A stretch of 64,000 nucleotides of DNA from Escherichia coli (lineage in GTDB: Bacteria > Pseudomonadota > Gammaproteobacteria > Enterobacterales > Enterobacteriaceae). Shown one piece after another: positions 54,001-63,000 of the stretch. The stretch lies in assembly GCF_024223415.1 (NCBI RefSeq), contig NZ_CP100500.1. One strand, 5' to 3'. The position numbers are program-made. Within the stretch, counting starts at the first letter, position 1. Each line of letters opens with the position of its first letter.

Positions 54001-57000
54001 CCACACCCATCCGTGGAATCAGATAACAGGTGTTCCATCAGCCTCGCTGACGGCAAAAGGTACCGTACAGCTTAGCAGTGCCACAAACAGCAATTCCGAA
54101 ACGCTGGCGGCCACACCAAGAGCTGTTAAAGCTGCGTATGACCTTGCCAACAGCAAAGCCGCGGCAGCCCACACTCATCGCTGGGCTCAGATCACAGACG
54201 CCCCTGTTTTTTCGTCTGTTGCCCGCGTCATCATGGGTAAACAAAGCATAAAAGATATTCTTGATTACCTTGGTTTAGGAGAAGGCTCGACGCTGCCAGT
54301 TGGCGTACCCGTTCCGTGGCCTTCGTCAAGACCACCTGAAGGGTGGTTACAGTGCAATGGTGCCGCATTCACGCGTACAAAATACCCAAAACTGGCAGTG
54401 GCCTACCCTGACCTAAGGCTACCAGATTTGCGCGGGGAATTTATTCGTGGATGGGATGACCTGCGAATGATTGACAGGGGACGCTTATTGTTATCCACAC
54501 AGGAAGCAACATATATTTGTACCGCCATACAGGCGTACCACGGCGTAGCGGGAGGTGCAGATATTCAGGCAGGGATTTCATTTGCATCACATGATAACGA
54601 CATCATAAACATAACCCCTGATCAACCCAGAACCGGTAACGGCATCCTGTACGGCAGAAAACCAGTTGACAGATGGGCAATAGCCAGAGCCGGTAAGCTG
54701 GTGAGTAATGAAAAAGACAGATGGATAGCGATCAGACCGCGCAATATCGCTTTTAATTATATTGTGAGGGCAGTTTAATGAGTAACACTGCAGTTCTGGA
54801 TGAAAACGGTATCGCCACTTTCGCAGGCGATATCACTGTATATCACTATGATGAGGAAACCCGGGAATACACCTCATCCTCTGTGGAGTATCTGGCCCTG
54901 GGGGTGGGTACCCCGGCACATTCATGCGCCGATGCCCCGCCAGAGGCAATGCCGGGTTACGTGATTTGCCGGACGTCCACGCTGGACGGGTGGGAGTATG
55001 TCCCCGATCATCGTGGAGAGACGGTATACAGCACAGAGAACGGTAATCCGGTCCAGATTACCCAACCAGGTGACTACCCGGAAGGGACAACGACAAAACA
55101 GCCTGCCACACCATGGGATACCTGGAACGGTGAGGCGTGGGTAACCGATACAGAACGGCAGCAAGCCGAAGAGCTGGAGGTTACCAGACAGCAACGCCAG
55201 GAACGGGTGGATCAGGCGATGAAGTCCATCGACCTCATCAACCTTAAGTTGCGGGCAGGTCGCAGTCTGACACCAGAAGAAACGGCAAAACTGAATGCCG
55301 TGCTGGATTATATCGACGAGCTGAACGCACTGGATATCAGCACGGGGCCTGAAATAACCTGGCCGGAAACACCACCAGGAATGGAATGAGCGGGGAAAAG
55401 GAACGGGCATTCATAAATAATTCATCATGCAGGTGCCGCAAGAATGCGGCACATTACCTTCACATCAGATCATTTACGCCGCTTACTGTGGTATTCCAGA
55501 CCGAACTTAACTTCCCTTTCATTCCCGAAAGCATATCAGACACCGGCGACGAGGCCATACTCTCCCGCAAATCCTCATCACAGCGTTCCAGACTGACAGT
55601 GAACTCAATTTTTTTGGCCTTACCGTGGCGGTCAAGTTCGCTTCGCGTTGTGCGGACAGCCGTTATCACATACATGCCGTATATCTGCCCCACACCGTCA
55701 ATCAGCGGCCATGGGCGACCAGTGTAAGCCTGCGTCGTTAAAAGGCTGAGGGAAACCTCACCGCCGGTAATTTCGGGATAAAGCACACCGGACAACGTGA
55801 TCTGGTCGTCACCCGCCCCGATATACTGCCAGCTGGCCGAACGATTGATGCGTTCATTTTTAACGTGGCGCCAGGTTTTATTATGTTGCAGTTGTTGATG
55901 AGGCAGCGTACGCAACTCAAAAACAAACATGCCGTAAATCATCATCATGCGAGGTACTCCTAATCTCTGTCACGGAAACTACCGACTGTCTGGCGGATAC
56001 GGCGTTCCATTTCCGCACGGACGGCATCACCCACCATTTTTGCCAGTTCGCGCGGGTTTTGCGTGTGAACATCATGCAGGTGAATATGCAGTTCGCCAGT
56101 TAATCCCCATGGTGCCGGATCACTCTGACGCGGTCGGGGCGATGCGGGGGATATGGGCTGGCGTACAGCCTCAACCACCGGACGGGATGTTGCCGTTACG
56201 ACGGGTGTCATTACCGGCGCAATATTGCCGGACACGACCGGTTTAATTACCGGGGAGAGCGTCGGTATAACATCGCCAGCCATAACCGGTTTGATCGCTG
56301 GCGAAATAACCGGAGCAACAGACTCAGCCATGACGGAACTGACAGGCTGAGGCGCTCTCACTATGCCAGCATCGATAACCAGCATGAGCTCGCGTACTGC
56401 CTCAAGGACAGGACGGGATATTGCCGCCATCACTGGTGTCATTAGCGGGGAGAACGTCGGCATGACATCGTGAGTCATAACCGGTTTGATCACCGGCGAA
56501 ACCACCGGCGTAATATTACCGGACAGTACCGGACGGACGACCGGAGGAATAACCGGCACATTATTCACGGACACCACCGGCTTCACGACCGGCGACACGT
56601 TCGCCGTGGTGGATATCAGCGGCGAAACACTGACAGGCGGTGGCGCTGGCAGCGGTGGCAACGAAGGCACACTGACCGACGGCACCTGCGGCAGTCTGAC
56701 AGGTGGCTCACTGACACTACCCGGTAACAGGGAAGCTGCGCGGTTAAAGCGTTCCTCCTTCCACTCACCACGAACGGCCAGCGCTTCCGGCAGGTTTTTA
56801 AAGATAATATCGCCGGGACCAGTGCGTTTTTTCGCCTGTTTCGCCTCATCCAGCAGACCACCGGTGTTATCGACGATTTTGTTCAGGCGGCGCATAGTGC
56901 CGGTATTCTCCCCCGTCAGGGGTGGTTGCCCCCCTTTGGGTTTTTCGCCGTCTTTTTTATCCTCGTCCTTTTTCGGCGGATTAATGACGTTAACATCCGC

Positions 57001-60000: not shown

Positions 60001-63000
60001 AACCTCAAATCAGGGGGCGACGCCACGCGCCGCCGTGGAAAACATTAACCACCAAGACCAATCGCCGAGCGCACGCGGTCCGGGAAGACGCTTTTGCCGT
60101 CCTTGCGTTCGATGTGGTTCAGTAAATCAATCTCCAGCACCGGACGGTCGTTAATGCTGAGTTTGTAGTAGGTACTTTTGACCGCATAGGTGTGAGACGT
60201 GACCTCACCCTGTTTGGCCTCCCCGGTATCAATTTCCGTCACGCGACCGCGAAGCTCAATCTCGTACAGGTCACTCTGTTCTTCATCGTTGTAGTACTCA
60301 CCGACAAAGCGCAGCAGCGTACCGTCAATCGTTCCGCCGTACTTGAGGAACAGTTCGCGGGTCGGCCCGCCCATGGTGAAACTCGCATCCAGCGCGCCGT
60401 CATCCAGGCCAAGGTCGATATTTACTGCACCGGCCATACCACCACCGCGATAGGCTTCCGTTTTACGGGTCAGTTTGGGGGCCGTGAAGCCGGTCACTCT
60501 GCCAATCTGGTTCACCCCGTCAGTAAACAGCGTGAACACCCTGAGATTTTTTGGTACGGCCATTAAGCACCTCCAAGCGTCGCAAATGCAGGACCAAAGA
60601 ATTCATCAGTAAACGTCTGGTAAAGTTCCATATCCTCAAGCGGCGGAACGGGCGTGTACTTGTAGCGGATACGCACGCGTCCCTGACGAAGTTCCGTGGT
60701 GCTGTTATCCACCACGTCATACCAGCACTCCGCACCAACGAGACGTCCTGACGTAACCAGCGCATCCAGTTTTGCGCGAATTGCGCTTAACACGTCTTTC
60801 ACATTAGCAGGGGTCAGCGGGGCATCAATCGTTTCAAACTGCGCTTCCGCAACAGAATCAGCCAGCACCTGAGCGGTTCGCGTGTACACCTCAAAGATAT
60901 ACGCCTTCGTTTCCGGCGTACGGTTGCCCCAGAAGCGGAAACCGTTACGGCGAATGATGGTGGTGATTTCCTTGTTGTTGAGATTGTTGGCATCGCTGTC
61001 TTCGGACTGAAGGGACCAGAACACCGGGCTGGAAATACCCAGCACATTTCTTACCGGCACGTTGGACAGCGATTTATGCCAGCCCTGTTCGTGGTCAATA
61101 CGTGCACGTAAACCGCAGGCGTACGCCGCAGCCGGGAAGACCTCATTAGCGCCGGATTTCGGGTTATGGGCGATGAAGTCAGGCCAGAGCAGCATAAGTT
61201 CGCGCTCGTTAAATCTGGCGCGGTAGCTGATTGCATCAGCGGGCTTCTTGCAGTTGTGACAGCCCGCGTAGACAAATGCGCGAAGTTTTTCTGCAATTAC
61301 ACACAGGGATTTTGTGACAGCTTCAGTATCCAGTCCGGGAGCTGCGATGATGCGCGGACGGTAACCGATGGCATCATCCTGTTCAGCTATCAGAAGTGCA
61401 TACATACCGGTATAATTACCGTCGCCATCCGTGCCACCAATGACATACTGGTCCTGCGTTTTGTGTGGGTATACAGGATGTGCATCTTCAGACTCATCAA
61501 TACCAAAAAATGCCCTGTCTTCAGGATCCAGATGACCGAATGATGTAACTCCTGTATCCGGGGCGCCCTGAGAACTGGCATCAGGAACGCGCACCACAAT
61601 CACCTTCGTGCTCACCTGGTCGGCGACAGCCTTAAGCGATTTGTAAAGCGTCCCCTTTGTGCCGGCCTTACCCAGCACATCACTGACGCGGGTCAGCAGT
61701 GTGGGTTTGTTCAGCGGGAACAGAGTTTCATCCGCGTCATCTGCCGTAGCCACAATACCAATAACACTGGAATCCACATCATTAATGGCGGTGGCAAGGC
61801 CGGTACTTTCCCTTACGCGCGCACCATGAAAGCGTGTTTCACTCATATGTTTCACCCTTGTCTGGCTGGTTGATTTTGCGTAATCATTACCCACACACGC
61901 GGTAATCTCACCCCTTTGATGTTGTCTCCTGACAGCGACAACAAAACAGCCATTCAACGCCGCTACGGTGCATGAAACCATTACAGAACGCACCAGGAGA
62001 GAACACCATGAAAGAGCTGTCAGTTACCGTTCCGTCACCGGATATCGACATCACCATCAACAACAACACACTGGCAAACCTCACAGAGCGACTCATGACG
62101 CTGTCACTGACCGACAACCGGGGCTTTGAGGCGGACCGCGTCACCCTGACCATTGACGACGCGGACGGGCAGCTTCAGCTGCCACAGCGCGGCGCACGCC
62201 TGAACGTGATGATTGGCTGGCGCGGGGAGGCGCTGGTTAACAAGGGTGTCTACATCGTTGATGAAGTGACGTGGGAAGGCCCGCCGGACAAACTGACCAT
62301 CACCGCCAGCAGCGCCGATTTTCGCGAAGAGTTCAACGTGAAGCGTGAAGTCTCCTGGCACGACGTGACGGTAAAACAGGTTGTGTCAGCCATCGCGCAC
62401 CGCTACGGCCTGAAAGCACAGATAAGCGATATCCTCATGGATATCGAAATTGACCACGCAGACCAGACCGAAGAGAGTGATATATCCTTCCTGACCCGCA
62501 TGGCTGAAATGCTGGGTGCGATTGCCACCGTAAAAAACGGCAGCCTGTTATTCATTCTGCCGGGTGGCGGAACCGGGCCGGACGGAAAAGCCCTGCCTTC
62601 GTTCGCCATTACCCGCAGCAGCGGCGACAGTCACCGCTTTCGCATTGCTGACCGTGATGCGTATACGGGGGTCCGGGCGCACTGGCTCGATCTGAAGTTC
62701 GGGCAAAAGAAAAAAGTGAACGTGAAGCGACGCAGGGAAGCCGGGAAACAGAAACAGGAGAAGAGCAGCAGCCGGGAAGGTGATTACATGGAAGGCGCGG
62801 AAGGTAACGTCTACGTTCTGCGCAGGACTTACCAGAATGAAGAAACCGCACGACGTGCAGCAGCTGCAAAGTGGCAGGAACTACAGCGGGGCGCGGCATC
62901 ATTCTCCATCACGCTGGCGCGCGGTCGTGCCGACCTGTACCCTGAAATGCACGGCAGGGTAACAGGTTTTAAAAGCGAGGTGGACAATCAGGACTGGATT

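What the first reader, a model, noticed from the sequence alone, without database searches (positions are those of the whole stretch)
55390..62007. Tail gene block FI-FII-E/E'-T-U is inverted relative to canonical P2 gene order
In P2, as I recall the map, the order after the tail fibre genes is G, Z/fun, FI, FII, E, T, U, D, ogr, all rightward. Here H and G (plus strand) are followed directly by U, T, E, FII and FI on the minus strand, then D and ogr on the plus strand. The FI-to-U block keeps its internal order and the E/E' frameshift arrangement but is flipped as a unit, leaving D separated from its usual operon. The G-U junction (55390-55459) is only 70 bp with a hairpin (GTGCCGCA-AGAA-TGCGGCAC), so the Z/fun cargo slot of P2 appears empty. 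The FI-D junction holds a palindromic TGT-N12-ACA element that could serve divergent late promoters. This is either a real rearrangement that still looks functional or an assembly artefact.
Basis: partly seen in the sequence, partly recalled or inferred. Interest (0 to 1): 0.6.

Follow-up and report, generated by a model that had tools for sequence, protein, structure and literature searches.

The report
Normal gene order of P88-like phages
The flipped tail-gene block is real. It is the standard, inherited layout of a recognised branch of P2-like phages (the P88 group), which is common in E. coli and includes working phages, so the finding is ordinary.

Summary
In this P2-like prophage of E. 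coli, U, T, E/E', FII and FI lie on the minus strand, between H-G (plus) and D-ogr (plus). Every other P2 homologue keeps the P2 order.

It is not an assembly artefact and not a private rearrangement. The same layout occurs in:
- all 47 phage records whose sheath protein is at least 52% identical to this one, covering five ICTV genera (Xuanwuvirus/P88, Novemvirus, Reipivirus, Reginaelenavirus, Senquatrovirus) and Serratia phage KSP20;
- 10 of 10 related bacterial-genome loci;
- 80 of 80 related IMG/VR contigs;
- 27 complete E. coli genomes that match both junctions collinearly at 96-99% identity.

Phages with this layout form one clade. P2, ENT90, YenM42.18 and RSA1 keep the canonical order. 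Several clade members are plaque-forming phages.

What I add is a prediction. The 161-bp FI-D spacer carries one conserved dyad (GTTGTC-N10-GACAACAAAA) midway between two conserved -10 elements. This is the same geometry as the shared activator site of P2's divergent P and O promoters. One Ogr site therefore probably drives FI-to-U leftward and D-ogr rightward. This has not been tested experimentally.

Interest is low.

The parts
52766..54778 (+). H, tail fibre gene. It contains 2.6 tandem copies of a 300-nt unit at 53303-54090.
54778..55389 (+). G, tail fibre assembly gene. It is the last gene of the rightward baseplate/fibre genes.
   Evidence: Pfam Caudo_TAP on the identical gene
55390..55459 (.). 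70-bp spacer between the converging G and U genes. It has no cargo gene. This is the position of the variable slot seen in relatives.
   Evidence: The same 70-bp gap occurs in six E. coli genomes. In relatives the slot holds an invertase plus a fibre segment, or a DUF262 gene.
55433..55452 (.). Perfect 8-bp GC-rich hairpin with a 4-nt loop. It may act as a two-way transcript end or stabiliser. It has no adjacent U-tract.
   Evidence: z-scores -1.4 and -2.2. The terminator scan did not call it.
55460..55948 (-). U, tail protein gene
   Evidence: phrog_76 at 3e-71; Pfam Phage_P2_GpU; 50% identity to P2 U
55960..59481 (-). T, tape measure gene (1173 aa from ATG 59481). It contains an imperfect 116-nt repeat at 56237 and 56432.
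59468..59686 (-). E' extension, read after a -1 frameshift on TTTTTTG (59686-59680). It ends at 59468, overlapping the start of T.
   Evidence: P2 has the same heptamer at its annotated frameshift site. PGAP calls a 'GpE family' ORF here in GF60.
59632..59994 (-). E, tail assembly chaperone gene
   Evidence: phrog_103 at 4e-31
60045..60563 (-). FII, tail tube gene
   Evidence: TIGR01611 scores 119 bits, above its cutoff of 102.75
60563..61846 (-). FI, tail sheath gene (427 aa from ATG 61846)
   Evidence: phrog_23 at 9e-118. PGAP calls the same start in GF60.
61883..61888 (-). Predicted -10 hexamer (AATGAT) of the leftward FI promoter. A, A and T at hexamer positions 2, 5 and 6 are conserved across the clade. 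Its last T lies 48.5 bp from the dyad centre.
   Evidence: Geometry compared with P2. The transcription start has not been mapped.
61921..61946 (.). Dyad GTTGTC-N10-GACAACAAAA, which contains TGT-N12-ACA. It is centred at 61931.5 and is the predicted shared Ogr binding site.
   Evidence: It is the most conserved block among 83 distinct FI-D spacers. It aligns with the PF box of P2, YenM42.18 and ENT90.
61973..61981 (+). Predicted extended -10 element (TG-a-AACCAT) of a rightward D-ogr promoter. Its last T lies 49.5 bp from the dyad centre.
   Evidence: The transcription start has not been mapped.
62008..63099 (+). D, tail/baseplate hub gene (363 aa). It diverges from FI.
   Evidence: phrog_52 at 7e-153
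63143..63394 (+). ogr, gene for the zinc-finger late activator. It lies 43 bp after D.
   Evidence: The source name 'ogr/Delta-like zinc finger family protein [Escherichia coli]' is given.
44247..44271 (.). Comparator in the same prophage. An almost identical dyad, GTTGTC-N10-TACAACAAA, lies between the divergent P and O genes, with -10-like hexamers about 49.5 bp to either side.

Best explanation
The window holds an E. coli prophage of the P88-like branch of the P2 family (Peduoviridae). In the ancestor of this branch, the segment carrying the PF promoter and the genes FI, FII, E/E', T and U was inverted once. The breakpoints lay just after the fibre genes and between U and D. All descendants inherit the layout, and it is compatible with making infectious phage.

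The inversion carried the FI promoter and its dyad-symmetric Ogr site with it, which placed that site next to D.

Predicted mechanism, not yet demonstrated: one Ogr site centred at 61931.5 now activates two back-to-back late promoters. One runs leftward through FI to U. The other runs rightward through D and ogr, which would give ogr positive feedback. P2's P and O promoters share a single activator site in the same way.

The leftward FI-to-U transcript and the rightward transcript ending at G converge on the 70-bp hairpin spacer.
For: Layout:
- Searches show the layout in the window.
- All 47 phage records with FI at least 51.8% identical have FI and D adjacent on opposite strands.
- Annotated examples come from five genera plus KSP20.
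- The same layout is found in 17 of 17 related loci and 80 of 80 IMG/VR contigs.

Canonical order in the nearest non-members and in outgroups:
- YenM42.18 (FI 45.6% identical) and ENT90 (45.1%).
- P2 and RSA1.

Single origin: inverted loci form one clade in neighbour-joining trees of FI, D, U and FII.

Independent assemblies:
- 27 complete E. coli genomes cover at least 80% of window 54300-63450 collinearly at 95.7-98.9% identity.
- IMG/VR contig L021 matches at 98.3% across both junctions.

Function in relatives:
- P88 is inducible and lytic (PMC5285337).
- PhiSM is spontaneously active (PMC6456863).
- SEN4/5 forms plaques and has myovirus morphology (PMC5261728).
- Serratia PP4 releases particles (PMC9826266).

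Promoter model:
- The P2 record annotates one 'activator binding site; pO, pP promoters' at 3057-3087, with transcription starts at 3016 (-) and 3127 (+).
- In the window the dyad centre lies 48.5 and 49.5 bp from the last T of the two -10 hexamers. The P2 values are 49 and 48 bp.
- The dyad and both -10 blocks are the most conserved parts of 83 distinct spacers.
- The box derived from the P-O spacer finds only the FI-D site in 64 kb when one mismatch is allowed, with 0 expected.
- The region upstream of FI aligns with PF of canonical phages, box included.
Against: - No transcription starts or Ogr binding have been measured for any member of this clade.
- The -10 hexamers are weak (AATGAT, AACCAT).
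- The left half of the dyad varies; P88 has TCT where this phage has TGT.
- I found no separate early promoter for ogr in the 43-bp D-ogr gap or in the 3' end of D. How the first Ogr is made is therefore unexplained, unless the extended -10 gives basal transcription.
- The hairpin lacks a U-tract and folds only modestly better than shuffled sequence.
- The single-origin inference rests on neighbour-joining trees with four canonical outgroups, not on a family-wide phylogeny.
Confidence: 0.85

Rival explanations
1. The block was flipped by an assembly error in this one sequence.
For: None found. The only nearby repeats that could confuse an assembler are the 300-nt repeats inside H, and they do not flank the block.
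Against: - Both junctions are reproduced collinearly in 27 complete E. coli genomes at 96-99% identity.
- IMG/VR contig L021 matches at 98.3% over 10 kb across both junctions.
- Six further genomes have the same 70-bp G-U gap.
- No inverted repeats flank the block.
- The FI-D spacer is homologous along its whole length to that of P88 and other clade members.
Confidence: 0.01
2. The block is a programmed invertible segment that flips between two orientations, like the Gin, Cin, Pin and Min tail-fibre switches.
For: Relatives carry a DNA invertase in the slot next to U.
Against: - The window has no invertase homologue.
- No inverted repeats bound the block; the longest pairs are imperfect and lie elsewhere.
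- Only one orientation appears in more than 150 independent records.
- In P88 the invertase sits beside the duplicated fibre and assembly genes that it would flip.
Confidence: 0.02
3. The layout is as described, but D-ogr is not activated from the shared dyad. It would instead be read from an Ogr-independent extended -10 promoter, or from a promoter I did not detect, while the dyad serves FI only.
For: - The rightward element has a conserved TG extension, a feature that can work without a -35 or an activator.
- Some Ogr must be made before any Ogr-dependent promoter can fire.
- No other ogr promoter was found.
Against: - The spacing from the dyad centre to the rightward -10 is held within about 1-3 bp across the clade. 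It equals the leftward spacing and the P2 PO spacing.
- The P-O spacer of the same prophage has the same two-sided arrangement.
Confidence: 0.2

Closest known systems
Escherichia phage P88 and other Xuanwuvirus (Peduoviridae)
   Same: - Same order and strands: H, G, then U, T, E', E, FII, FI reversed, then D and ogr.
- It is the sister group in the FI, D, U and FII trees.
- Protein identity is 72-80% for U, FII, FI, D and Ogr, and lower for E and T.
- The FI-D spacer is homologous.
   Different: - P88 carries an invertible fibre segment and a DNA invertase between G and U. Here that slot is a 70-bp hairpin spacer.
- Nucleotide similarity is only about 75%, and over 29% of the tail region.
- T is about 240 aa longer here.
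Near-identical prophages in complete E. coli genomes, for example strain GF60 (NZ_CP172185), next to copA
   Same: - 98.9% identity over the whole 9.15-kb stretch, in one piece.
- Same gene calls and the same junctions.
   Different: - GF60's T is annotated as a pseudogene.
- Other copies have T of 1103 aa and H of 626 or 744 aa.
Bacteriophage P2 (Peduovirus P2)
   Same: - Same gene set, and the same order outside the block.
- Same E/E' slippery heptamer.
- An Ogr-type activator.
- The PF box is alignable.
   Different: - In P2, FI, FII, E, T, U and D form one rightward operon after G and fun(Z).
- Here FI to U is flipped, D-ogr stands alone, and there is no fun(Z), no orf30 and no spacer between S and V.
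- Proteins are only 33-62% identical.
The divergent PP/PO late promoters of P2, which share one activator site
   Same: - One dyad lies between two divergent late genes.
- The dyad centre is 48-50 bp from the last T of each -10 hexamer.
- Predicted transcription starts are about 112 bp apart, against 111 bp in P2.
   Different: - The arrangement sits at a different junction (FI and D rather than P and O).
- For this phage, starts and activator binding are predicted only.
- The rightward -10 has a TG extension that P2 PO lacks.

Membership tests
P2-like phages (Peduoviridae) | The P2 set of head, lysis, baseplate, tail, integrase, repressor and replication genes in P2 order | tested here: met
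   24 P2 proteins hit the window, and all are collinear except the FI-to-U block.
P2-like phages (Peduoviridae) | Ogr/Delta-type zinc-finger late activator | tested here: met
   - 36% identity to P2 Ogr.
- phrog_603.
- Source name 'ogr/Delta-like zinc finger family protein'.
- The four cysteines are visible in the translation.
- The NCBIfam hit is below its cutoff.
P2-like phages (Peduoviridae) | E and E+E' made by a -1 frameshift on TTTTTTG | tested here: met
   The heptamer, the open -1 frame and a homologous E' tail are present. Frameshifting itself was not measured.
P88-like clade (Xuanwuvirus, Novemvirus, Reipivirus, Reginaelenavirus, Senquatrovirus, KSP20) | FI-to-U block reversed, with U converging on the fibre genes and D-ogr diverging from FI | tested here: met
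   for the window; for the clade.
P88-like clade (Xuanwuvirus, Novemvirus, Reipivirus, Reginaelenavirus, Senquatrovirus, KSP20) | Tail proteins group inside the clade, apart from phages with the canonical order | tested here: met
   - Neighbour-joining trees of FI, D, U and FII.
- There is a gap in FI identity: at least 51.8% in the clade, and at most 45.6% in the two closest phages outside it that I checked (YenM42.18, ENT90).
Genus Xuanwuvirus | Genome-wide nucleotide identity at genus level. The ICTV convention is about 70% over the full length (from my own knowledge). | tested here: inconclusive
   Megablast aligned only 29% of the 10.8-kb tail region to P88, at 75.6%. The whole genome was not compared.
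Invertase-driven invertible segments (Gin/Cin/Pin/Min type) | Inverted repeats at both ends of the segment | tested here: not met
   No such pair bounds 55.4-61.9 kb.
Invertase-driven invertible segments (Gin/Cin/Pin/Min type) | A serine invertase gene next to the segment | tested here: not met
   The P88 invertase has no tblastn hit in the window.
Invertase-driven invertible segments (Gin/Cin/Pin/Min type) | Both orientations present among copies | tested here: not met
   Only one orientation appears in all related records.
P2-type Ogr-dependent late promoter (shared PP/PO type) | Dyad TGT-N12-ACA centred about 55 bp upstream of the transcription start, with no -35 | tested here: inconclusive
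   The dyad is present and conserved, and its spacing to the -10 hexamers equals that in P2. The starts are inferred, not mapped.
P2-type Ogr-dependent late promoter (shared PP/PO type) | Transcription depends on Ogr binding | not testable with these tools
   This needs reporter or binding assays.

The most novel reading that the evidence does not exclude
One ancient inversion carried the PF promoter to the side of D. Because the Ogr site is a dyad, this created a second two-way late control region. The whole late programme of P88-like phages would then run from just two bidirectional Ogr sites, at P/O and at FI/D, with ogr under its own positive feedback. No V promoter is visible, because S and V overlap and there is no third box. 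A further, untestable guess is that the invertase so often found at the G-side breakpoint catalysed the original inversion. I found no discussion of any of this in the papers I could search.
Probability: 0.5. Interest if true: 0.3.

Novelty: already known. Interest (0 to 1): 0.12.

Why it matters
It matters little beyond housekeeping.

- **Annotation:** P2 is not a safe template for gene order across Peduoviridae. A reversed FI-to-U block should not be flagged as a misassembly or as a sign of a defective prophage.
- **A modest testable point:** an inversion of an operon together with a symmetric activator site can immediately supply regulated expression to the gene left behind. This may explain why the rearrangement was tolerated and then fixed.
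- **Hotspot surveys:** in this clade, the variable cargo slot after the fibre genes now lies between converging operons.

Tried and rejected
- **Assembly artefact:** rejected on independent complete genomes and contigs.
- **Invertible switch:** rejected. There are no flanking repeats, no invertase, and only one orientation is seen.
- **Bare TGT-N12-ACA as evidence:** rejected, with 15 found against 15.4 expected. I replaced it with the extended dyad, which is unique to the P-O and FI-D spacers.
- **Hairpin as a textbook intrinsic terminator:** not supported. It has no U-tract, the scan did not call it, and the z-scores are -1.4 and -2.2. I keep it only as a possible transcript end.
- **Third Ogr box for a V promoter:** none found with up to 3 mismatches, and S and V overlap.
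- **Separate ogr promoter:** none found by the consensus scan.
- **att core repeat:** no exact repeat of 10 nt or more between the int-side and ogr-side flanks, so the prophage ends are not defined.
- **Genome-contig scan:** it gave only 10 loci and did not find the source genome. The host was identified from exact protein matches instead.
- **First E. coli genome query:** it was one base over the length limit.
- **Literature:** term searches in six papers on P88, PhiSM, SEN4/5, Serratia PP4 and P2-like hotspots found no text on the inversion. Their figures could not be read.

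
Full report
**What is there**

Listing ORFs, scanning them against PHROGs and NCBIfam and mapping all P2 proteins onto the window by tblastn gives a P2-like prophage. Its gene order is int, C, A, Q, P, O, N, M, L, X, R, S, V, W, J, I, H, G, then U, T, E, FII and FI on the opposite strand, then D and ogr. 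The P2 GenBank record confirms the canonical order G, fun(Z), FI, FII, E/E', T, U, D, ogr, all rightward.

Reading the junctions adds these details:
- The G-U spacer is 70 bp and holds a perfect 8-bp hairpin at 55433-55452.
- FI starts at ATG 61846 and D at ATG 62008, after AGGAGA. The two genes are separated by 161 bp and do not overlap. PGAP makes the same calls in a near-identical prophage.
- E carries the slippery heptamer TTTTTTG at 59686-59680. The -1 frame runs to 59468 and overlaps the ATG of T. P2 has the same heptamer at its annotated frameshift site.

**Is it unusual?**

No. The nearest sequenced phage is Escherichia phage P88. Its annotation shows the same layout.

I compared tblastn tables for the sheath protein FI and for D across 50,697 phage records:
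- All 47 records with FI at least 51.8% identical to this one have FI and D adjacent on opposite strands.
- These records include Xuanwuvirus, Novemvirus phiT5282H, Reipivirus ST16-OXA48phi5.4, Reginaelenavirus 3LV2017, Senquatrovirus SEN4/5 and Serratia phage KSP20 (annotations).
- The next-best records, YenM42.18 at 45.6% and ENT90 at 45.1%, have the canonical order. So does the betaproteobacterial phage RSA1.

A scripted check of gene order found the reversed layout in all 17 related loci held at that point. Ten of these were bacterial-genome loci, from Citrobacter, Pantoea, Enterobacter, Kosakonia, Trabulsiella, Xenorhabdus, an unclassified Enterobacteriaceae isolate (LSJC7) and a contig from a Collinsella MAG bin that is probably mis-binned. 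The same layout was found in 80 of 80 IMG/VR contigs closest to this D protein. In neighbour-joining trees of FI, D, U and FII, the reversed loci form a single clade, with the window as sister to the P88 group. The simplest reading is one ancestral inversion inherited by the whole clade.

**Is it an artefact or a switch?**

The host is E. coli. The exact U and Ogr proteins occur on about 1000 E. coli contigs.

Evidence against an assembly artefact:
- 27 of 5,426 complete E. coli genomes hold at least 80% of window 54300-63450 in one collinear place, at 95.7-98.9% identity. Seven of them cover 100% in a single piece. The best is strain GF60.
- IMG/VR contig L021 matches at 98.3% from 53933 to 64000.

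Evidence against a programmed switch:
- No inverted repeats flank the block.
- The window has no homologue of the P88 invertase.
- Only one orientation is ever seen.

**Does it work?**

Members of the clade are live phages:
- P88 is inducible and lytic (PMC5285337).
- PhiSM of Citrobacter rodentium is spontaneously active (PMC6456863).
- SEN4/5 forms plaques and is a myovirus under the electron microscope (PMC5261728).
- Serratia prophage PP4, which resembles KSP20, releases particles (PMC9826266).

All tail ORFs in the window are intact.

**How it is probably expressed**

This section is inference. The P2 record annotates one 'activator binding site; pO, pP promoters' at 3057-3087. It lies between the P transcription start at 3016 (minus strand) and the O start at 3127 (plus strand), which are 111 bp apart.

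The FI-D spacer here has a single dyad, GTTGTC-N10-GACAACAAAA, centred at 61931.5. Two -10 elements flank it:
- A -10-like hexamer on the minus strand (AATGAT, 61888-61883). Its last T is 48.5 bp from the centre.
- An extended -10 on the plus strand (TG-a-AACCAT, 61973-61981). Its last T is 49.5 bp from the centre.

The matching P2 distances, read from the sequence, are 49 and 48 bp, and 50 bp for PF. Starts are therefore predicted near 61876 and 61988, about 112 bp apart.

Further support for the model:
- Among 83 distinct spacers from the clade, the most conserved blocks are GACAACAAAA, the leftward AT..T and the rightward C.TG..A.CAT.
- The same prophage has an almost identical dyad in its P-O spacer (44247-44271), with the same two-sided spacing.
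- A search with that P-O box, allowing one mismatch, finds only the FI-D site in 64 kb, where none is expected by chance.
- The region upstream of FI aligns with the PF region of P2, YenM42.18 and ENT90, box included. The promoter therefore moved with the block.

Because the site is a dyad, D could come under late control as soon as a -10 was present at the right distance.

Weak points:
- Nothing has been mapped in this clade.
- The hexamers are poor matches to consensus.
- The left half-site varies between members.
- I found no separate promoter that could make the first Ogr.

**The G-U junction**

The hairpin is real, but it has no U-tract and folds only modestly better than shuffled sequence. 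Its role as a two-way terminator is only plausible.

In relatives this position is a variable slot. It holds an invertible fibre segment with an invertase in P88, 520873 and several genome loci. It holds a DUF262 gene pair in ST16-OXA48phi5.4. In the others it is short spacers of about 130-200 bp.

**Verdict**

The papers I could search do not discuss the inversion in their text. The shared-site promoter model is a small prediction that may not have been stated before.

Noticed in passing
window 53303-54090 (inside H, 52766-54778): There are 2.6 tandem copies of a 300-nt unit, 98% matching, which encode 100-aa repeats in the tail fibre. H is 626, 670 or 744 aa in otherwise near-identical E. 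coli prophages. IMG/VR contig L021 breaks exactly here. Copy number therefore varies and probably breaks short-read assemblies.
   Followed up: partly
window 55960-59481 (T); repeat at 56237-56352 and 56432-56547: The tape measure protein is 1173 aa here. It is 1103 aa in other E. coli copies, 935-995 aa in P88-like phages and 815 aa in P2. An imperfect 116-nt direct repeat lies in the proline/valine-rich C-terminal part. A longer tape measure would predict a longer tail. The GF60 copy is annotated as a pseudogene.
   Followed up: partly
window 50378-50381 (S/V overlap): S and V overlap, and there is no orf30 and no spacer between them. No third Ogr-type box was found with up to 3 mismatches. 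The V-to-G genes may therefore be read as part of one long O-to-G operon, unlike P2, which has a separate PV promoter.
   Followed up: partly
window 38160-41370 (between A and Q, the P2 old/tin slot): This is a cargo region of small ORFs. It includes a weak RelE/StbE-like toxin (39951-40223, minus strand) next to an HTH protein (39503-39877, minus strand), an ArsR-like HTH protein (39081-39467) and an unassigned 234-aa ORF (40606-41310). That last ORF is preceded by TGT-N12-ACA at 40528-40545. All family hits are below curated cutoffs.
   Followed up: partly
window 63509-63533 and 63976-64000: An exact 25-bp direct repeat, each copy a GC hairpin followed by a T-run, brackets a 467-bp AT-rich stretch that holds a 71-aa ORF on the minus strand. 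It lies just right of ogr, towards copA. It may be a small insertion or a duplicated terminator. No att core repeat for the prophage was found.
   Followed up: partly
window 1342-26914: An intact giant ORF of 6925 aa (4679-25456, minus strand) has a BapA/SiiEA-type N-terminus and Ca-stabilised Ig-like repeats. It is flanked by type I secretion genes: HlyD-type adaptor, LssB-type ABC exporter and TolC-type channel. glsA and an amino-acid transporter gene lie between this locus and the prophage.
   Followed up: partly
L001 (P88, NC_026014) 13809-14057: The RefSeq annotation of P88 has no ogr gene. However, tblastn finds a 72%-identical Ogr coding region in the unannotated gap after D.
   Followed up: no
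L009 (JAIJJM010000345.1, 'Collinsella sp.' MAG): A 3.4-kb contig binned as the actinobacterium Collinsella carries FII, FI, D and ogr that are about 78% identical to this enterobacterial prophage. It is probably a binning error.
   Followed up: no
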